This document shows, piece after piece, positions 2,504 to 13,646 of a DNA stretch of 35,802 nucleotides. Origin of the DNA: Patescibacteria group bacterium (GTDB lineage: Bacteria > Patescibacteriota > Minisyncoccia > Phycocordibacterales > JAGLPS01); contig JBBUCK010000090.1 in assembly GCA_038057845.1 (NCBI GenBank), positions 17,183-52,984 on the forward strand, in the 5' to 3' direction. Every line of letters begins with the position of its first letter. The stretch's first letter is position 1. The translations under genes were made by a program, and so were the position numbers. The notes under the pieces are model-generated. The model had not been told where the DNA came from. It worked only from the letters and a program-made list of their open reading frames with translations, and made no database searches.

Positions 2504-2743
2504 ATGAACGCTTCAGCACAGGCAGTTGAAAATCTTAAAAGAGAGATTGAAAAAGAAAGTCAAGAAATTCACAAAAAGGAAAGTGATTTAAGCAAAAAGA
2601 AACAGGAACTACAAAAAATTGAAGTGGAAATTAAAACGCTTGAATCGGAAATAGGACAATTGCATGGGCATATGTCTGAAAATGAAAGAGAAATTAAAGA
2701 TATACAGCAAGAACTGCAAAAAATGATGCAGAGCAAGAATTAA
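2504..2743 (+). CDS. Small coiled-coil hypothetical protein
   Basis: 79-aa E/K/Q-rich heptad pattern; TGCTATAAT promoter upstream and terminator downstream. Confidence 0.7.
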   Translation: MNASAQAVENLKREIEKESQEIHKKESDLSKKKQELQKIEVEIKTLESEIGQLHGHMSENEREIKDIQQELQKMMQSKN

Positions 2744-2780
2744 ACAAAAAGACACGGTTTCTCCCGTGTCTTTTTGTTTA
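2741..2780. terminator. Bidirectional intrinsic terminator
   Basis: taaacaaaaagacacgg-tttctc-ccgtgtctttttgttta (17-bp inverted repeat) between convergent units. Confidence 0.8.
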
Positions 2781-2791
2781 ACATGCGCCTT

Positions 2792-2915
2792 GAGCCGTTG
2801 GCCAGATTGGTCACAGCTCGCTATAGCGGACGCGACCCCGCCTCAACGTCGCAAAGCGACATATTCCGGCCTTCAATTCTGGATAGACGCAAAGCAGTTT
2901 GCGTCTTCCAAACGG
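2792..2915 (-). repeat. tRNA-3'-tethered structured element (copy 1, on tRNA-Thr-GGU)
   Basis: Inverted copy of the T-arm (2872-2882 vs 2926-2936) and direct copy of the tRNA 3' end (gagccgttggccaga, 2792-2806 vs 2916-2930); core shared with 10646-10801 and 13051-13277. Confidence 0.75.
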
Positions 2916-2916
2916 G

Positions 2917-3180
2917 AGCCGTTGGCCAGAATTGAACTGGCGACCTACTCCTTCATATATACTCCTTTTTACCGAAACACTTATATAAGGAGATTAGACT
3001 GTATCTTTCTCCGCCTCGGGCGGAGACCCTTGTCAGTCGTTCGAGCCCTTCGATTTCCTCAGGGCTACGGTCTGACCCTGTGCGAGGGCTTTAACCGTAA
3101 TTCGGGATTCACTAGAAGATTACTCTCAAAGTGGGCAAAAATTTACCATGGAGTTGCTCTACCAACTGAGCTACAACGGC
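2917..3180 (-). tRNA. tRNA-Thr(GGU), intron-containing (exons 3145-3180 and 2917-2953)
   Basis: Joined exons give a 73-nt cloverleaf: GCCGTTG...ACTCC-AT-GGT^AA-GGAGT...GCCAG-TTCAATT-CTGGC-CAACGGC-T. Confidence 0.92.
2954..3144 (-). ncRNA. Group I intron (191 nt, no ORF) inserted just 3' of the anticodon (36/37)
   Basis: 5' exon ends in U, with P1 GGU/GCC giving a U.G pair; intron ends in G; P4 ACGGT/ACCGT, P5 GCCCT/AGGGT, P7 GACTG/CAGTC in AACGACTGA ... AAGATACAGTCTA, P8 TCTCCG/CGGAGA, P9 CTCCTT/AAGGAG. Confidence 0.88.
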
Positions 3181-3442
3181 ATTTTTTGTTCTGGTAATAC
3201 ACCAGAACAAAATAATGGCGTCGTACTAAAAAGTCTACTGCCTGCCCGTGAGATTGCGAAGCAATCTTTTCGGGGAGCTACAACGGCAAGTGAGGAATAG
3301 AGAGGATGCTAGCATACTCTCTATTTCCGAGCGAAGCCGTTGCAAGCTTTGCTTACAACGGCAAGTGAGGAGAAAAGGAAGCACAAGTACTTACTTTATC
3401 TCCGAACGCCACCGTTGCAAGGGTACTATCCCTTACAACGGC
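3181..3442 (-). repeat. Tandem structured units in the tRNA-Thr(GGU) 5' leader, each starting with a copy of the tRNA 5' end
   Basis: GCCGTTGTA begins at 3442, 3362, 3287 and 3180 (the tRNA); unit lengths 80, 75 and 107 nt. Confidence 0.8.
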
Positions 3443-9415: not shown

Positions 9416-9839
9416 TATATGAAAAAATTAACGTATTAGGATGCGAGGCCAACCATGTTTGAAAAGCTACTTCAACAGGAATAAAAACTTCGCCTGTTTC
9501 GGCATGAGTCATTATTACTTTCCCTTTTGAATCACGACTCACCACGACAGGCTCTCCGGCGATTTGGTCGTAGATTGGATTTATGCTTCCAAATATATAC
9601 GCCGGATAAGCCTTGTTGTATTCACTAATAGAGAAACCGTACACGGGAGTCGAAGCAGACAATTTTTCTTCCATATTCTGAACATTTTCCTCACTGGGAA
9701 CATCGAGAGTGCCCCTATCAGAAAACTCATTATTCTTTGAAGAATTTAACTTAGCAGGTAAAGAAAAAACAAAGTAAACGAGAATAAGCAATAGTATGCC
9801 GAAAAGTAGTTGGGGGAGATATTTTTGTATGTTTATCAT
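9408..9839 (-). CDS. Hypothetical membrane-anchored protein (C-terminus reminiscent of DUF3179)
   Basis: TM anchor; KAYP and F..W...HPNT motifs; start uncertain. Confidence 0.55.
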   Translation of the reverse strand: MINIQKYLPQLLFGILLLILVYFVFSLPAKLNSSKNNEFSDRGTLDVPSEENVQNMEEKLSASTPVYGFSISEYNKAYPAYIFGSINPIYDQIAGEPVVVSRDSKGKVIMTHAETGEVFIPVEVAFQTWLASHPNTLIFSYND

Positions 9840-9870
9840 TTCATTCCAGTATAACAAATGTTAATAGAAC

Positions 9871-9899
9871 TTGTATGCACTCTTGTTTCGTGTTATATT
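9871..9899 (+). promoter_or_regulatory. Sigma70-type promoter for tRNA-fMet
   Basis: TTGTAT, 17 nt, then TATATT with a TGn extension. Confidence 0.5.
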
Positions 9900-9953
9900 T
9901 CGCCCATTATCCGAGAGTCAATCCACTAACAAGTGAATTGCCCACGGACAGAT

Positions 9954-10024
9954 CGCGGGATGGAGAAGTAGTATCTCGGAAGGCTCATAACCTTCAGGCC
10001 CTGGTGCAATTCCAGGTCCCGCAA
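9954..10024 (+). tRNA. Initiator tRNA-fMet(CAU)
   Basis: CGCGGGA/TCCCGCA with C1.A72 mismatch; GAAGG-CT-CAT-AA-CCTTC anticodon arm; CCTGG-TGCAATT-CCAGG T-arm. Confidence 0.88.
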
Positions 10025-10039
10025 AAGTTTCGAGGAAAC

Positions 10040-10114
10040 TTTTGCGAGGCTCGCCAAAAAGGCGGCCCGCAATCATTTTGCGAGGCTCGTCTCGCCAGAG
10101 GCGGACGGCCCGCA
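10040..10114 (+). repeat. Two tandem hairpin units ending in a copy of the tRNA-fMet 3' end
   Basis: ttttgcgaggctcg at 10040 and 10076; cggcccgca at 10063 and 10106 (the tRNA ends ggtcccgca). Confidence 0.65.
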
Positions 10115-10160
10115 TTTACACAAAAAACCTCCACCTTAGGCTGGCGGTTTTTTGTGTAAA
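10115..10160. terminator. Long hairpin/terminator
   Basis: tttacacaaaaaacc ... ggttttttgtgtaaa 15-bp inverted repeat. Confidence 0.7.
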
Positions 10161-10170
10161 ATTGGGATAT

Positions 10171-10410
10171 ATGTACTTCGTCTATATTCTTCTAAGTTAT
10201 AAAGATAACAGAACATATGTCGGATATGCAAAAAATCTAACAGCTCGGCTATATGAACATAACTGTGGACGTGTAAAAGCAACAAAACATCGTCGACCGT
10301 TTAAAATGTTCTATTCAGAACAATTTCCAACATTAAAAGAAGCAAAAAAACGTGAACTGTGGTGGAAAAGTAGTAGAGGTAGAAGTGAACTCAAGAAGTT
10401 TTTTGTATAG
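10171..10410 (+). CDS. Small GIY-YIG nuclease family protein (79 aa)
   Basis: YFVYIL...TYVG...RL.EHN.G...TK..RP...EA..RE...KS..GR pattern. Confidence 0.88.
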   Translation: MYFVYILLSYKDNRTYVGYAKNLTARLYEHNCGRVKATKHRRPFKMFYSEQFPTLKEAKKRELWWKSSRGRSELKKFFV

Positions 10411-10490
10411 TGAAAGAGATTTGTAGGGATATTAATTTTACTTTATCCAATATAGATTTTACTTAGAGAGTGTAGTAATCTAGGAAATAC

Positions 10491-10573
10491 ACCGACGCAA
10501 GGGAGCCTTATAGTTCCTTGTGTCGGCAGCATTCGGAGAAAGAATGCACACGCGCCTTCTTTGCTCCTCATTT
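10491..10573 (+). repeat. tRNA-5'-tethered acceptor-stem-mimic unit on tRNA-Met
   Basis: ACCGACG-CAAG-hairpin-CTTG-TGTCGGC-A-GCATTCGGAG-hairpin-CTCCTCATTT directly abutting the tRNA; same layout as 3288-3442. Confidence 0.75.
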
Positions 10574-10645
10574 GCCGACGTAGCTCAGTGGTAGAGCACT
10601 TCACTCATAAAGAAGTGGTTGGAGGTTCGATTCCTCCCGTCGGCA
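10574..10645 (+). tRNA. tRNA with CAU anticodon (probably elongator Met; Ile2 not excluded)
   Basis: GCCGACG/CGTCGGC-A acceptor stem; CTTCA-CT-CAT-AA-AGAAG (31.39 mismatch); GGAGG-TTCGATT-CCTCC. Confidence 0.88.
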
Positions 10646-10801
10646 CCCGCAGGGTGGCGCGGAGTCCTGCAACTGCTTGCAGGACGGGAGGAATCGAAGA
10701 CCGTAGCGATGTTTTTGCAAAAGCAAAAACCGCGAGGGCGGCCTGCGAGTTCTTGAGCGGAAGCGAGAGAAACTTGTAGGCAATCCCTGCCGTCGGCACC
10801 A
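10646..10801 (+). repeat. tRNA-3'-tethered structured element (copy 2, on tRNA-Met)
   Basis: gacgggaggaatcgaa (10683-10698) is the exact reverse complement of 10626-10641; ccgtcggcacc is repeated at 10790-10800. Confidence 0.78.
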
Positions 10802-10825
10802 GTAATCTATTGGGTTTTAAGTTTG

Positions 10826-10899
10826 CGCGAGCGACGGGACTCGAACCCGCAGCCTTTCCCGTGACAGGGGAATGCTCTAGCCAATTGAGCTACGCCCGC
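10826..10899 (-). tRNA. tRNA-Asp(GUC)
   Basis: GCGGGCG/CGCTCGC-G acceptor stem; TTCCC-CT-GTC-AC-GGGAA; GCGGG-TTCGAGT-CCCGT. Confidence 0.93.
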
Positions 10900-11552
10900 A
10901 TTTTAATAAACTTTTCGAACACAATTTTCTTTCGAGGTAAGTACAACCTTATTTCTTTGCCATTATACATCCGTTTATACAGATGAAGAGAACTGCGTAT
11001 GCTGTAATATAGCCGAGAAAAACCCTTCCTGCAAGACAGACCTCCTTTTATTCCGTACTCCTCAAGAGCCCTTTTTAAATCCTTTAAAAATCTTTGGGAA
11101 CAGGAAGTAAAAACAGTTTGAATTGCTATGTGTTGTGTTTTTCTTTTTTTGTGAATAATACCGACCCATACATTGCCATCGCCATCAAAATATCCCCGTA
11201 CAAAATGGAAGAGATACCGGGAAGGTATGTTAGGAAAGAAAAGATGGTAAGATTTTTTTTCACACAACCCAAGTGCCCTTAGATCATCACACATTTCATA
11301 GCTTCCAATTTGCAAGGTATATTTTGTCTTTTCATTCCCTGTTCCAGGACGTTTCCCTATGAAATGGTTTGACTGAAGAACAGTGCGTATATCATATAAG
11401 AGTTTTTTATCCGTAATCTTCAAATTCAAAAAGTGACTTCCTCTTTTGGAAACGCTTATATTTCCATCAGCAATAATAAAGCCTAAAACATACGCCATGT
11501 TAGCAGACCATTTTTTGAAGAAATTTTTGTTTATTTTTTTATACACAGGCAT
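10890..11552 (-). CDS. Free-standing two-motif LAGLIDADG homing endonuclease-like protein
   Basis: YVLGFIIADG and FVRGYFDGDG motifs; very basic; stop codon lies inside tRNA-Asp (nt 8-10). Confidence 0.88.
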   Translation of the reverse strand: MPVYKKINKNFFKKWSANMAYVLGFIIADGNISVSKRGSHFLNLKITDKKLLYDIRTVLQSNHFIGKRPGTGNEKTKYTLQIGSYEMCDDLRALGLCEKKSYHLFFPNIPSRYLFHFVRGYFDGDGNVWVGIIHKKRKTQHIAIQTVFTSCSQRFLKDLKRALEEYGIKGGLSCRKGFSRLYYSIRSSLHLYKRMYNGKEIRLYLPRKKIVFEKFIKMRA

Positions 11553-11590
11553 GTTACCTAACCATAATTATAACAACATGGGCTCTATTT

Positions 11591-11613
11591 GTCCCATTCG
11601 CTCGCGCAACAAA
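11591..11613 (+). repeat. tRNA-Asp 3'-end remnant / att-like direct repeat (left)
   Basis: tcgctcgcgcaacaaa at 11598-11613 is identical to 13267-13282; 12 nt match the tRNA-Asp 3' end, which lies on the opposite strand. Confidence 0.7.
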
Positions 11614-11641
11614 AAAGAGCCATATTTATATGGTTCTTTTT
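11611..11641. terminator. Intrinsic terminator following the tRNA remnant
   Basis: aaaaaagagccatat-tt-atatggttcttttt hairpin. Confidence 0.65.
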
Positions 11642-11681
11642 CTGTATACTGATTGGACTAAGAAACTGGTACAATACAAAT

Positions 11682-12899
11682 ATGTTTACATACCTTATTT
11701 TTACAATACTTGCAGTTGTGGTCGGTACAGTGTCTTTATGTGTGTTAATTATTCGCTTGATTAAAAAACCATCTATTTATGCTGTGTTGAAACAGCGAAG
11801 AAATTATTTTCCTATAATTTTAGTCATTGTTGCTCTTCTTGTTGGATTTCTAGCAAACAAAACTTATCCGCCAAATTTTGCTATGCCAGCATTTATGATG
11901 TCGCATGCTCCAGGAGGAATACCTGCTTCTATACCATTTGGTAAAATTGTTGAATTTTTTAAGTATCAAAATAGATTTGAAAAAGTTGCTGATATTGGTG
12001 CTAATCCAAATTTAGTACCAGAAAAATCACAAACTCCCGACACTGATGGCATTGTTCGTATTAGCTTGGTAGCTCAAGAAGTAATATCAGAAATTTCTCC
12101 AGGCATTTACTTTAATTATTGGACATATAACAATCAGGTTCCAGGACCAATGCTTCGTGTTCGTGAAGGAGATACTATTGAACTAACTCTCACAAACCAC
12201 ATATCTAGTCTACATCCACACAACATAGATCTTCATGCTGTTACTGGTCCTGGTGGTGGAGCAGTTCTTACAAATGTAAGACCAGGAGAAACAAAAACAT
12301 TTAAATGGAAAGCATTAAACCCAGGGCTTTATGTATATCATTGTGCAACAGCAAATGTAAGCACGCACAATTCTCACGGGCAGTACGGACTTATTATGGT
12401 AGATCCGAAAGATGAAAAATTTGCTTTACCAAAGGTTGATAAAGAATTCTACATCATGCAAGGAGAGCTATATACAGAAGGACAGCTTGGCAAAAAGGGG
12501 TTAGTGCCTTTTGATTCTGAGGCTTTGCTTGATGGAATACCGAATTACGTGACATTTAATGGTAAAGTTGAGCAAATTCCTAGAATGCATGCAAAAGTAG
12601 GGGATATTGTAAGAATGTATGTTGGCAACGGAGGGGTTAATCTTATTTCATCTTTCCATGTTATAGGAGAAATATTCGATACTGTATATCCAAATGCAAA
12701 TATCGGTGGAGCGCTCGAACATAACACTCAGGCTACTGCAGTATTACCAGGGGGAGCAAGTATTGTTGAATTTAAATTGGAAGTACCTGGTAAGTATCTC
12801 TTAGTTGATCATGCTCTTGCACGAATGAATAAGGGTGCTTGGGCAGTACTGGAAGTTTCTGGTGACGAAAGTTCAGATATTTTTTCAGCCGGGAAATAA
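11682..12899 (+). CDS. nirK: Copper-containing nitrite reductase (AniA/NirK-like) with N-terminal TM anchor
   Basis: HNIDLHAVTGPGGG, YVYHCA, SSFHVIGE and LVDHAL motifs; ATG 11682 lies 6 nt after TGGTACAAT. Confidence 0.92.
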   Translation: MFTYLIFTILAVVVGTVSLCVLIIRLIKKPSIYAVLKQRRNYFPIILVIVALLVGFLANKTYPPNFAMPAFMMSHAPGGIPASIPFGKIVEFFKYQNRFEKVADIGANPNLVPEKSQTPDTDGIVRISLVAQEVISEISPGIYFNYWTYNNQVPGPMLRVREGDTIELTLTNHISSLHPHNIDLHAVTGPGGGAVLTNVRPGETKTFKWKALNPGLYVYHCATANVSTHNSHGQYGLIMVDPKDEKFALPKVDKEFYIMQGELYTEGQLGKKGLVPFDSEALLDGIPNYVTFNGKVEQIPRMHAKVGDIVRMYVGNGGVNLISSFHVIGEIFDTVYPNANIGGALEHNTQATAVLPGGASIVEFKLEVPGKYLLVDHALARMNKGAWAVLEVSGDESSDIFSAGK

Positions 12900-13000
12900 G
12901 GTGTCAAGAATTATTTTATTTGAAATATAGGAATATAGATTGTTTCATCATTCATCCTCTCAAAGCTGGTTCTGATATCGTCCAGTAAGTCGCGCAAAGC

Positions 13001-13032
13001 CAAAACCCGATAGATTTTTCTATCGGGTTTTG
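13001..13032. terminator. Hairpin/terminator
   Basis: caaaacccgataga-tttt-tctatcgggttttg. Confidence 0.65.
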
Positions 13033-13050
13033 TGCTTATGCACAACGAAA

Positions 13051-13282
13051 GCGAGCAAATTACTTTGCTCGCGATGGGACTTGAAAAGCGGAGGTATAAT
13101 TTTGTTTCCGCGAAGCGGAAGGCAAAATTACCGAGCCGGGTGAGAAGCGAATACGTGGAGCTTCGCAAGACCTTTTGAGACAATTTCTAAATTGTCCAAA
13201 AGGTGTACAGACCCTGTAAGGGTCGCGAGAAATTTTCGTCAGGAAATTTACTCGTGGCCAAGCCCATCGCTCGCGCAACAAA
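13051..13282 (+). repeat. tRNA-3'-tethered structured element (copy 3, orphan, tRNA-Asp-type) ending in the right att-like repeat
   Basis: gcgatgggacttgaa (13071-13085, an inverted T-arm) ... ggtcgc/gtggcc stem ... cccatcgctcgcgca (13263-13277). Confidence 0.72.
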
Positions 13283-13337
13283 CAAAAAGGCCCGGGAGTT
13301 ATTCCGAGCCTTTAGAAAGACTGCCGATTGGAGAGAG

Positions 13338-13646
13338 TTAGTTTAATGAACTGCTCCTTCTCAAAGACGTGATAATTATCCCAGCATCCACAATACTTCC
13401 TATCTCATGAATTTCCACAACCATAATCGGAAGCGTGTCCGGCATTCCGGATTCTTCAATTTTTTCTAAAAGTTCGTCAGCTTCTTCTGCTTCTACCATG
13501 TTTGTTTTTAAAACAAACTCAACCGCCAGACGGCCGCTCACCTTTGAGTGAATATGAAATGCTAAGCCATATTTGGGAAAGAAGATAAATCCGTGTGATA
13601 AAGGATACTTATCAATTAACTGGAAAAACGCCTTCGATTCGCCCAT
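13338..13646 (-). CDS. Hypothetical protein
   Basis: Strong RBS (AAAGGAGGG) upstream; hairpin at 13286-13313 downstream. Confidence 0.6.
   Translation of the reverse strand: MGESKAFFQLIDKYPLSHGFIFFPKYGLAFHIHSKVSGRLAVEFVLKTNMVEAEEADELLEKIEESGMPDTLPIMVVEIHEIGSIVDAGIIITSLRRSSSLN

What the first reader, a model, noticed from the sequence alone, without database searches (positions are those of the whole stretch)
2792..2936. A conserved structured element attached to the 3' end of different tRNAs, with tRNA-specific terminal stems
Seen in three places (2792-2915 on Thr, 10646-10801 on Met, 13051-13277 Asp-type) in the same order: hairpin GCAA(A)-YTRC-(T)TTGC; an inverted copy of that tRNA's own T-arm (CCAGAATTGAA, GACGGGAGGAATCGAA, GCGATGGGACTTGAA); a CG-rich stem with GA/GAG internal loop and variable hairpin; a stem that covaries (GGTCGC/GTGACC, GCCTGC/GTAGGC, GGTCGC/GTGGCC) around a variable hairpin; AA; then a direct copy of the tRNA's 3' end. 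The inverted copy can pair with the distal copy (closing a multi-way junction and freeing the tRNA) or with the tRNA T-arm. Inference: one element family whose ends are rewritten from each host tRNA, either a tRNA-targeted non-autonomous mobile element with templated ends or a conserved pre-tRNA trailer RNA (processing switch or integration decoy). A simple att-site duplication does not explain the inverted copy or the covarying core. I cannot match it to an RNA family I know.
Basis: partly seen in the sequence, partly recalled or inferred. Interest (0 to 1): 0.85.

Follow-up and report, generated by a model that had tools for sequence, protein, structure and literature searches.

The report
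Small structured inserts in tRNA genes
A family of small, folded, protein-less DNA inserts sits in the T-loop end of many tRNA genes of these tiny groundwater bacteria, comes and goes between close relatives, and has not been described as far as I could find.

Summary
All three sites (E1 2934..2792 minus, E2 10628-10801, E3 13051-13275) share a core: GNC-GGA, hairpin P2, GA-GN'C-GG, hairpin P3 (GGTCGCG..CGTGACC). On 72 copies the core shows strong covariation, a near-invariant G.U/G.T wobble and an invariant bulged A, so the folded strand is the tRNA-sense strand.

No Rfam family matches. The family is abundant: 17 copies in this genome, 51 of 61 genomes of the order, and 59 matches in one genome. 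Most copies lie just 3' of tRNA or tmRNA genes.

Comparison with a same-genus genome shows these are insertions. E1 and E2 are absent there. The distal "direct copy" is the displaced original tRNA 3' end, with its CCA and flank. The working tRNA now ends in an element-borne copy of positions 56-73, often followed by a terminator-like hairpin.

None of the four enzyme families tested tracks the element: Y1 transposase, tyrosine recombinase, LAGLIDADG, reverse transcriptase. No RNA data exist.

Best reading (0.55): a non-autonomous, single-strand-folded mobile element that targets the T-loop and spreads through tRNA homology. The inverted copy and the mobilising activity remain unexplained. A functional RNA is not excluded.

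The parts
2917..3180 (-). tRNA-Thr(GGU) gene interrupted in the anticodon loop by a group I intron of about 191 nt; host gene of E1
   Evidence: Read directly. ARAGORN -i finds it with a 191-nt intron but mislabels the anticodon. Weak Rfam Intron_gpI hit at 2978-3154, 21 bits, E 0.006. The intronless ortholog tRNA-Thr(ggt) in G001 has the same exons.
2917..2934 (-). E1 proximal copy: tRNA positions C56 to discriminator 73, the working 3' end of the tRNA
   Evidence: Sequence. In a single-strand fold it pairs with the inverted copy at 2882..2872.
2886..2905 (-). E1 hairpin 1 (GACGCAAA-CTGC-TTTGCGTC)
2872..2882 (-). E1 inverted copy of tRNA T-loop and T-stem 3' strand (CCAGAATTGAA)
   Evidence: Perfectly complementary to 11 nt of the tRNA T arm.
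2809..2870 (-). E1 conserved core: GCC-GGA, P2 hairpin, GA-GGC-GG, P3 hairpin (GGTCGCG..TGTGACC)
   Evidence: Model R1 hit at 2801-2880, 52.1 bits. Covariation.
2792..2809 (-). E1 distal direct copy of the tRNA 3' end (C56..73, one T-loop base missing)
   Evidence: 15 of 17 positions match the tRNA.
10574..10645 (+). tRNA-Met (elongator type), host gene of E2. Positions 44-64 differ at 6 sites from G001 and G002, while positions 1-43 are identical.
   Evidence: and alignment A5.
10628..10645 (+). E2 proximal copy (C56-A73), followed by CCC instead of CCA
10646..10665 (+). E2 linker holding a degenerate inverted copy of the acceptor 3' strand
   Evidence: It pairs with the tRNA 3' end in the folds.
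10666..10683 (+). E2 hairpin 1
10683..10698 (+). E2 inverted copy (GACGGGAGGAATCGAA). It has 16 of 16 complementary positions to the present tRNA T-loop, T-stem and acceptor, but is only partly complementary to the distal copy.
10699..10781 (+). E2 core, a divergent subfamily (P2 and P3 GCCTGCGAG..CTTGTAGGC)
   Evidence: Read by eye and folded. It is NOT hit by model R1. Relatives of this subfamily follow tRNA-Asn in G001 and G002.
10781..10801 (+). E2 distal copy: the displaced ancestral tRNA-Met 3' end with CCA
   Evidence: It reads the same as the 3' end (A57 through CCA) of the tRNA-Met of G001, which has no element; G002 also has no element and matches it except for one T-loop base.
13051..13072 (+). 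E3 hairpin 1
13071..13085 (+). E3 inverted copy of a tRNA-Asp-type T arm and acceptor; it pairs with the E3 distal copy
13086..13259 (+). E3 core with extra hairpins between P2 and P3
   Evidence: Model R1 hit at 13190-13267, 30 bits. Sequence.
13259..13275 (+). E3 distal copy of a tRNA-Asp-type 3' end; orphan, with no tRNA upstream
10825..10899 (-). tRNA-Asp, which carries no element here although the G001 ortholog does

Best explanation
The finding is one member of a large family of small (about 100-250 bp), protein-less, structured insertion elements. They occupy the T-loop-to-3'-end of tRNA and tmRNA genes in one order of Patescibacteria.

Shown:
- The inserted block starts at C56 of the tRNA gene. 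In order it carries its own copy of positions 56-73 (without CCA), usually an A-run/hairpin/T-run that looks like a terminator, an inverted copy of the T arm, and a conserved two-hairpin core.
- The core ends exactly where the old C56..73(CCA) of the gene resumes.
- The tRNA stays intact but now ends in element-borne sequence. The old 3' end is left behind as the distal repeat.
- Copies are gained and lost between species of one genus, and they form tandem arrays.
- Related copies sit behind different isoacceptors in different genomes.

Inferred:
- The element acts in single-stranded form, because only the tRNA-sense strand keeps its pairs (G.T wobble, bulged A, compensatory changes).
- It spreads without an enzyme of its own. 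It would use homology to the tRNA gene on both sides: uptake of DNA and host recombination, or excision and re-entry as a small circle through the 18-nt repeat.
- The folded block can loop out of a heteroduplex with an empty tRNA gene.
- The inverted copy would zip the block shut against the tRNA-like arm.

The activity that first creates a version for a new tRNA is unknown.
For: Family and structure:
- Model R1 finds 17 copies at E<1e-4 in the genome.
- On 72 copies, 93.4% of cells pair and 20 of 24 pairs change on both sides. G.U occurs in 70 of 71 at one pair, and a bulged A in 70 of 71.

tRNA link:
- 22 of 29 relatives' loci hold a tRNA.
- In G036, 30 of 44 hits lie within 400 nt downstream of a same-strand tRNA, and 27 of 43 tRNAs carry one. 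In G049, 10 of 10 hits and 10 of 36 tRNAs.
- One copy sits at a tmRNA gene.
- In 10 of 36 tRNAs examined, the distal repeat starts exactly at C56.

Insertion polarity:
- G001 (same genus) lacks E1 and E2. G002 also lacks E2.
- The E2 distal copy matches the G001 tRNA-Met 3' end including CCA. G000 tRNA-Met has 0 differences in positions 1-43 and 6 in positions 44-64.
- For tRNA-Gly(gcc), the G001 gene ends in CCA plus flank. In G000 the distal copy keeps the CCA and a homologous flank, and the proximal copy lacks CCA.
- G001 tRNA-Ser(gga) is a divergent allele plus an element. Its distal remnant is the G000-type 3' end.

Turnover: of 21 tRNA types shared by G000 and G001, at least 8 differ in element state.

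Terminator-like hairpin in the linker: 19 of 37.

Compact single-strand folds: E2 -47.7 kcal/mol, z -8.0; E1 -31.9 kcal/mol, z -5.2.

Patchy spread: 51 of 61 genomes in the order, but only 6 of 150 other genomes across the phylum, 5 of them in other classes.
Against: - No mobilising enzyme was found. Y1 transposase is in 37 of 61 genomes, a tyrosine recombinase in 58 of 61 (mostly one Xer-like copy), LAGLIDADG in 19 of 61 and reverse transcriptase in 24 of 61. None tracks the element.
- No empty/filled polymorphism or circle junction was seen in four metagenome runs, which were contigs only.
- The order-wide conservation of core sequence and structure is more than a passive hitch-hiker needs. 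It would suit a functional RNA equally well.
- The tRNA-specific inverted copy is not explained by recombination alone. It is not consistently better kept than the distal copy: mean 10.8 against 12.0 of 17 positions, and it is better in 9 of 36 and worse in 23 of 36.
- An 18-nt right-hand homology is short for RecA-type recombination (from general knowledge, not tested).
- The evidence for a replaced 3' end at tRNA-Arg(tcg) is ambiguous, because both of its copies carry the new sequence.
Confidence: 0.55

Rival explanations
1. The core is a functional structured RNA, made by read-through from the tRNA gene and cut out by the tRNA-processing enzymes. The stem between the inverted and distal copies mimics the acceptor/T-arm minihelix. 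The RNA acts in tRNA maturation or as a tRNA-like small RNA. The genomic mobility is secondary.
For: - Strand-specific covariation, an invariant G.U and a bulged A are typical of RNA motifs.
- The family is conserved across 51 of 61 genomes of an order.
- Own-partner closing stems are stronger than mismatched partners: mean -12.3 against -8.6 kcal/mol, p 6e-5.
- The E2 distal copy ends in an intact acceptor strand plus CCA. In the RNA fold of tRNA plus E2, the tRNA 5' strand pairs with it.
Against: - Terminator-like hairpins stand between the tRNA and the core in 19 of 37 copies, with no room for a promoter behind them.
- No promoter-like site lies at E1-E3.
- Copy number runs from none found to 59 matches per genome, and congeners differ at 8 or more of 21 shared tRNAs.
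- Only 31 of 67 closing stems are strong, and distal copies are often decayed.
- The E2 inverted copy would unfold its own tRNA if co-transcribed.
- No RNA run holds the locus, so expression is untested.
Confidence: 0.2
2. The elements are stripped-down remnants of larger integrase-bearing islands or prophages that integrate at the T-loop of tRNA genes (att arms without cargo, cis-mobilisable elements). They are moved in trans or in cis by such an integrase or by the resident Xer recombinase.
For: - The layout is that of tRNA-gene integration: an identity block from the T-loop to the 3' end, a replaced 3' end, a displaced repeat, tandem arrays, and use of tmRNA.
- A tyrosine recombinase is present in 58 of 61 genomes.
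- One true hit lies on a contig classed as viral.
Against: - No full-size version was found. No far-apart repeats of tRNA 3' ends occur in G000.
- None of the G036 hits without a nearby tRNA has a distal tRNA copy, apart from the tmRNA one.
- Extra integrase genes do not lie on the contigs of the listed R1 hits.
- The viral contig has no integrase.
- There is no match in phage or plasmid records.
- A double-strand recombinase gives no reason for G.T wobbles and compensatory changes on one strand.
- The sequences to the right of the crossover differ between tRNAs.
Confidence: 0.15
3. The blocks are kept because they serve the host at the DNA level. They could act as terminator or insulator modules behind tRNA genes, or as decoy attachment sites that draw integrating elements away from the working tRNA gene.
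For: Many linkers look like bidirectional terminators. The distal copy is a spare T-loop-to-3'-end target.
Against: A terminator needs no conserved two-hairpin core. No larger element was seen inserted in a distal copy. Presence is erratic among close relatives.
Confidence: 0.07

Closest known systems
Integrative elements at tRNA/tmRNA genes with T-loop crossover (genomic islands, prophages); described by Reiter et al. 1989 and Williams 2002, both recalled and not read here
   Same: The insertion falls in the T-loop region. The element carries a replacement for the gene's 3' end. The old 3' end remains as a direct repeat of about 18-21 nt. Tandem arrays form and tmRNA genes are used as well.
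   Different: These elements are only 100-250 bp with no integrase or any gene. They have a conserved strand-specific folded core and an inverted copy of the tRNA arm. The family is found behind at least 14 different tRNA types plus a tmRNA gene rather than one cognate gene.
Cis-mobilisable elements (CIMEs) and MITEs: non-autonomous derivatives flanked by att sites or inverted repeats
   Same: Small, non-coding and multi-copy. They are flanked by att-like repeats, form arrays, and depend on functions supplied elsewhere.
   Different: No autonomous parent was found. There are no family-wide terminal inverted repeats, because the 'inverted repeat' is tRNA-specific. Covariation is preserved across an order.
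REP/REPIN elements with RAYT, and IS200/IS605-type palindrome-associated elements (single-strand 'peel and paste')
   Same: Short hairpins with conserved imperfections (wobble, bulged base). They are strand-specific, abundant and intergenic. Insertion occurs without a target duplication of their own.
   Different: Y1/HUH transposase genes do not track the element. For example G001, G003, G008, G030 and G045 have 13-25 copies and no Y1 hit, while G043 has 13 Y1 hits and no element. The target is a tRNA T-loop, and the element brings a gene fragment with it.
Folded single-strand recombination sites: integron attC and CTX-phage attP(+) used by XerCD (recalled)
   Same: The site exists only when one strand folds. 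Extrahelical bases and mismatches are conserved while the sequence varies. Recombination happens at the base of a hairpin.
   Different: No IntI-type integrase was sought or seen, and use of Xer is untested. The partner site is a tRNA gene, not attI or dif.
Group I introns in bacterial tRNA genes
   Same: Mobile structured insertions in tRNA genes of the same genomes. One sits in the tRNA-Thr that carries E1, and it is likewise absent from G001.
   Different: The element is not excised from the tRNA, because the tRNA is complete upstream of it. There is no match to Intron_gpI.

Membership tests
Any Rfam 15 RNA family | Match to a curated covariance model | tested here: not met
   The gathering-threshold scan of the window found only 5 tRNAs. 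Scans at E up to 10 of 2600-3400 and 9800-13500 found no hit over E1, E2 or E3 apart from a terminator look-alike next to E1.
tRNA-gene integrative element (att-type integration) | Direct repeat of the tRNA 3' segment flanking the insert, with the gene-proximal copy completing the tRNA | tested here: met
   In 10 of 36 tRNAs examined the repeat starts exactly at C56 and runs to the discriminator.
tRNA-gene integrative element (att-type integration) | Empty site in relatives, and a distal repeat that equals the original gene end | tested here: met
   tRNA-Met, tRNA-Gly(gcc), tRNA-Thr(ggt) and the tRNA-Ser(gga) remnant.
tRNA-gene integrative element (att-type integration) | Integrase gene within the element or a full-size relative | tested here: not met
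   There are no ORFs in the elements. No full-size version was found. Integrase hits are not co-located with listed R1 hits. The viral contig has no integrase.
MITE | Family-wide terminal inverted repeats and a short target-site duplication made by a transposase | tested here: not met
   The ends are tRNA-specific. The repeat is the gene's own 56-73 segment, and its proximal copy can be foreign. A non-tRNA subfamily in G036 does have A-run/T-run palindromic ends.
REPIN/RAYT or IS200/IS605 non-autonomous element | Co-occurrence with a Y1 (HUH) transposase gene | tested here: not met
   PF01797 is in 37 of 61 genomes, with no relation to element counts.
Retro-element (SINE-like, tRNA-primed) | Reverse transcriptase available in the genome | tested here: not met
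   PF00078 is in 24 of 61 genomes. It was not found in G000, G001, G002, G003 or G036, which hold 7 to 59 R1 matches each.
Group I intron | Match to the intron model and removal from the mature RNA | tested here: not met
   There is no Intron_gpI hit over the elements. The tRNA is complete upstream of the element.
Structured RNA motif (functional ncRNA) | Compensatory base changes that keep helices | tested here: met
   20 of 24 pairs change on both sides, 0 of 500 shuffles reach the observed values, and slid controls give 31-52% paired against 93.4%. The alignment was fitted to the model, which favours it.
Structured RNA motif (functional ncRNA) | Evidence of transcription and defined ends | not testable with these tools
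   No RNA run holds the locus. The runs laid were DNA contigs.

The most novel reading that the evidence does not exclude
This would be a nucleic-acid-only homing element. A folded single strand uses its inverted copy as a guide to pair with the T arm of a tRNA gene. The conserved P2/P3 core serves as the handle for a host recombination or repair activity. Insertion at U55/C56 overwrites the tRNA's 3' end with the element's own copy. In effect it is a protein-free gene drive on tRNA genes that can retarget by changing its guide.
Probability: 0.15. Interest if true: 0.9.

Novelty: new variant of a known kind. Interest (0 to 1): 0.7.

Why it matters
tRNA genes are the classic landing sites of large integrase-bearing islands. 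Here the same site logic (T-loop crossover, replaced 3' end, displaced repeat) is used by an insert of 100-250 bp that encodes nothing, yet keeps a strand-specific fold across a whole order of ultra-small bacteria.

If the reading holds, three things follow:
- The 3' ends of tRNA genes in these organisms are routinely overwritten by foreign sequence. tRNA-Met here has a foreign T arm, and the inserted copies seen here do not encode CCA (E1, E2, tRNA-Gly).
- A large share of the scarce intergenic DNA of these 0.5-1.1 Mb genomes is one selfish or domesticated motif.
- There must be a host activity, still unnamed, that recognises a folded strand next to a T-loop.

It also explains why tRNA finders miss or mis-end genes in such genomes, and why their assemblies break at tRNA loci.

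Tried and rejected
Known RNA families: Rfam at the gathering threshold and at E up to 10 gave nothing for the elements.

Literature: seven full-text searches found no paper describing the element. The terms covered CPR/Patescibacteria/Parcubacteria, tRNA trailers, minihelix, MITEs, T-loop integration, repeats and RNA motifs. I saw only search listings and abstract starts and read no paper. Supplements were closed and not needed.

Whole-collection pattern scans: the core pattern is too easily matched in GC-rich genomes. It served only to give Patescibacteria, Kaiserbacteria and Nomurabacteria titles among many chance hits. In viral contigs only 1 of 80 fetched loci was a true model hit. That contig showed an array of elements near one end and no integrase.

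Phage and plasmid records: no match.

Enzyme candidates: Y1 transposase, tyrosine recombinase, LAGLIDADG and reverse transcriptase do not track the element. A LAGLIDADG gene lies next to tRNA-Asp in the window, but the family is found in only 19 of 61 genomes.

Expression and excision: no RNA run holds the stretch. Contigs of four DNA runs gave no joint across E1, E2 or E3, only intronless tRNA-Thr alleles of relatives. This neither supports nor opposes mobility.

Promoter/terminator scans at E1-E3 were uninformative.

The idea that the inverted copy is kept better than the distal copy was tested and not borne out. The idea of a universal closing stem P1 held for only about half of the copies.

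My first regex screens were noisy and were replaced by the covariance model. E2 and its relatives are a divergent subfamily that model R1 does not detect, so counts from R1 are lower bounds.

For the adjacency count I used 54 of the 69 rows (those with E below 1e-4) and dropped the other 15.

Not done: no R-scape, no structure prediction of proteins, no complex prediction, and no second covariance model for the other element types.
Full report
WHAT IS THERE

The window is part of contig C90 of a 755-kb, 112-contig genome. Collection titles for related contigs name Patescibacteria, Kaiserbacteria and Nomurabacteria.

- E1 lies on the minus strand. It follows a tRNA-Thr(GGU) at 3180..2917, which ARAGORN misses by default because its anticodon loop holds a group I intron of about 191 nt. 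Evidence: a weak Rfam hit at 2978-3154 and ARAGORN -i. The same-genus ortholog is an intronless tRNA-Thr(ggt).
- E2 follows tRNA-Met (10574-10645).
- E3 stands alone between two terminator-like hairpins.

ANATOMY

From 7 compact units in the genome I obtained an alignment, and RNAalifold gave a structure. It reads: GNC, GGA, hairpin P2, GA, GN'C, GG, then hairpin P3 (GGTCGCG .. CGTGACC).

The covariance model R1 finds 17 copies at E<1e-4 in this genome. These include arrays of three units behind tRNA-Lys and behind tRNA-Arg(gcg).

On 72 copies from 49 sources:
- 93.4% of cells pair, against 70.7% in shuffles and 31-52% when partners are slid.
- 20 of 24 pairs change on both sides.
- The N/N' pair uses all four Watson-Crick types.
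- One pair is G.U in 70 of 71 copies.
- A bulged A in P3 is present in 70 of 71 copies.

The wobble fixes the folded strand as the tRNA-sense strand. The alignment was fitted to the model, which favours pairing, but the slid controls are far lower. No Rfam family matches.

DISTRIBUTION

51 of 61 genomes of the same order (58 families) have hits, with 1 to 46 per genome in that run. G036 gives 59 matches at E up to 0.01.

In an even sample of the phylum, only 6 of 150 other genomes have hits: 1 of the same order, 0 of 5 of the same class, and 5 of other classes.

The tRNA link is strong.
- 22 of 29 relatives' loci hold a tRNA.
- In G036, 30 of 44 hits lie within 400 nt downstream of a same-strand tRNA, and 27 of 43 tRNAs carry one.
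- In G049, 10 of 10 hits and 10 of 36 tRNAs.
- One copy follows a tmRNA gene.
- A subfamily in G036 is not tRNA-linked and has its own palindromic A-run/T-run ends.

THE tRNA-SPECIFIC PARTS

Behind a tRNA the order of parts is as follows:
- tRNA up to the discriminator;
- an inverted copy of T-loop plus T-stem 3' strand (8-18 nt), ending ..ATCGAA;
- the core;
- directly abutting P3, a direct copy that in 10 of 36 tRNAs examined starts exactly at C56 and runs to the discriminator.

IT IS AN INSERTION, AND THE DISTAL COPY IS THE OLD GENE END

G001 is of the same genus.
- tRNA-Thr(ggt) there has neither intron nor E1.
- tRNA-Met there, and in G002, has no E2.
- The G000 distal copy of E2 reads the same as the native 3' end of the G001 gene, from A57 through the CCA.
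- The present G000 tRNA-Met is identical to G001 and G002 in positions 1-43 but differs at 6 sites in positions 44-64. Its new T arm is perfectly complementary (16 of 16) to E2's inverted copy.
- For tRNA-Gly(gcc), the G001 gene ends in CCA. In G000 the distal copy keeps the CCA and a homologous flank, while the proximal copy runs into the element without CCA.
- G001 tRNA-Ser(gga) is a divergent allele followed by an element. Its distal remnant is the G000-type 3' end.
- The G000 element behind tRNA-Arg(tcg) is closely related along its length to the G001 element behind tRNA-Arg(gcg). Likewise the G000 Lys(ctt) linker equals the G001 Lys(ttt) linker. Copies therefore move between isoacceptors. 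The evidence that tRNA-Arg(tcg) had its last 8 nt replaced is weaker, because both of its copies carry the new version.
- Of 21 tRNA types shared by G000 and G001, at least 8 differ in element state.

WHAT MOVES IT

The elements have no ORFs. Four enzyme families were profiled over the 61 genomes:
- Y1 transposase, 37 of 61;
- tyrosine recombinase, 58 of 61, mostly a single Xer-like gene;
- LAGLIDADG, 19 of 61;
- reverse transcriptase, 24 of 61, and not found in G000-G003 or G036.

None tracks the element. No full-size, gene-carrying version was found. One viral contig has an array but no integrase. Phage and plasmid records have no match.

Folded as a single strand, the inserted block (C56 to the end of P3) is compact. 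In E2 the element-borne 56-67 pairs with the inverted copy, enclosing a small hairpin and hairpin 1, followed by P2 and P3 (-47.7 kcal/mol, z -8.0). E1 is similar (z -5.2).

I therefore favour an element that works as a folded single strand and spreads through its two tRNA-homologous flanks by host recombination. This could follow DNA uptake or excision at the 18-nt repeat. That step is inference.

WHAT DOES NOT FIT

- The core is kept far better than a passive passenger needs.
- The inverted copy is tRNA-specific but not consistently better preserved than the distal copy.
- A closing stem between the inverted and distal copies is strong in only 31 of 67 units, although own partners beat mismatched ones.
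- In an RNA fold of tRNA-Met plus E2, the inverted copy would unfold the tRNA, and the 5' acceptor strand pairs with the distal copy.
- Linker terminators argue against co-transcription. E1 and E2 lack them.
- No RNA data exist for this organism. A functional RNA therefore remains a live rival.

VERDICT

What is unusual is the conserved folded core, the inverted copy and the lack of any enzyme.

I found no description in Rfam or in seven literature searches (listings only). I rate it a new variant of a known kind (integration at tRNA genes), with interest 0.7.

Noticed in passing
window 2978-3154 (-), within tRNA-Thr(GGU) 3180..2917: A group I intron of about 191 nt lies in the anticodon loop of tRNA-Thr(GGU). 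It is absent from the same-genus genome G001. Metagenome contigs of relatives join across it.
   Followed up: partly
window 3271-3362 (-), upstream of tRNA-Thr(GGU): Two partial copies of the tRNA 5' end lie here, each preceded by CTCACTT. The first is followed by its own inverted complement, forming a hairpin. A similar hairpin and a GGAGAAAGA..TCTTTGCTCCTCATTT leader precede tRNAs in G001 and the tRNA-Met of the window. tRNA genes therefore also carry structured, tRNA-specific 5' flanks.
   Followed up: no
G000 C53:220-299 (-) (L009) and G001 L359:582-663 (-): A core copy lies UPSTREAM of tRNA-Ser(gga), behind a 25-nt copy of the tRNA 5' end. This is the mirror image of the 3' arrangement and suggests insertion in the D-loop region.
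   Followed up: partly
G000 C31:36150-36570 (-) (L004), C31:11400-11800 (+) (L006); L036, L041: A second, unrelated small element occupies the same place behind tRNAs. It consists of an inverted T-arm copy, a long hairpin (GCCCGATTGAG..CCAATCGGG or GGTTGAG..AACC), then a short hairpin with a CTGTAAG-type loop whose 3' strand runs into the T-loop copy.
   Followed up: no
window 10026-10120 (+), behind tRNA-Met 9953-10025: Two small hairpins lie here. Their arms look like an inverted and a direct copy of this tRNA's acceptor 3' end, and there is no core between them.
   Followed up: no
window 10890-11552 (-): A free-standing LAGLIDADG homing-endonuclease gene abuts the 5' end of tRNA-Asp. G001 has an ORF at the corresponding place between its two tRNA-Met genes; I did not search it against any family.
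   Followed up: partly
G000 C31:11509-11600 (+) and C90:1109-1200 (+) (outside the window): tRNA-like sequences with good T arms and acceptor ends directly follow tRNA-Arg(cct) and tRNA-Gln. ARAGORN does not call them.
   Followed up: no
G036 C7: 310880, 628101, 569532, 279412: These are near-identical copies of a core subfamily that is not tRNA-linked. They are bounded by A-run and T-run palindromic ends. One of them lies inside the loop of a larger palindrome.
   Followed up: partly
genome-wide, G000 and G001: In the cases compared, the tRNA genes that carry an element lack an encoded CCA: G000 Gly(gcc), Met and Thr(ggt). Their element-free orthologs in G001 encode it.
   Followed up: partly
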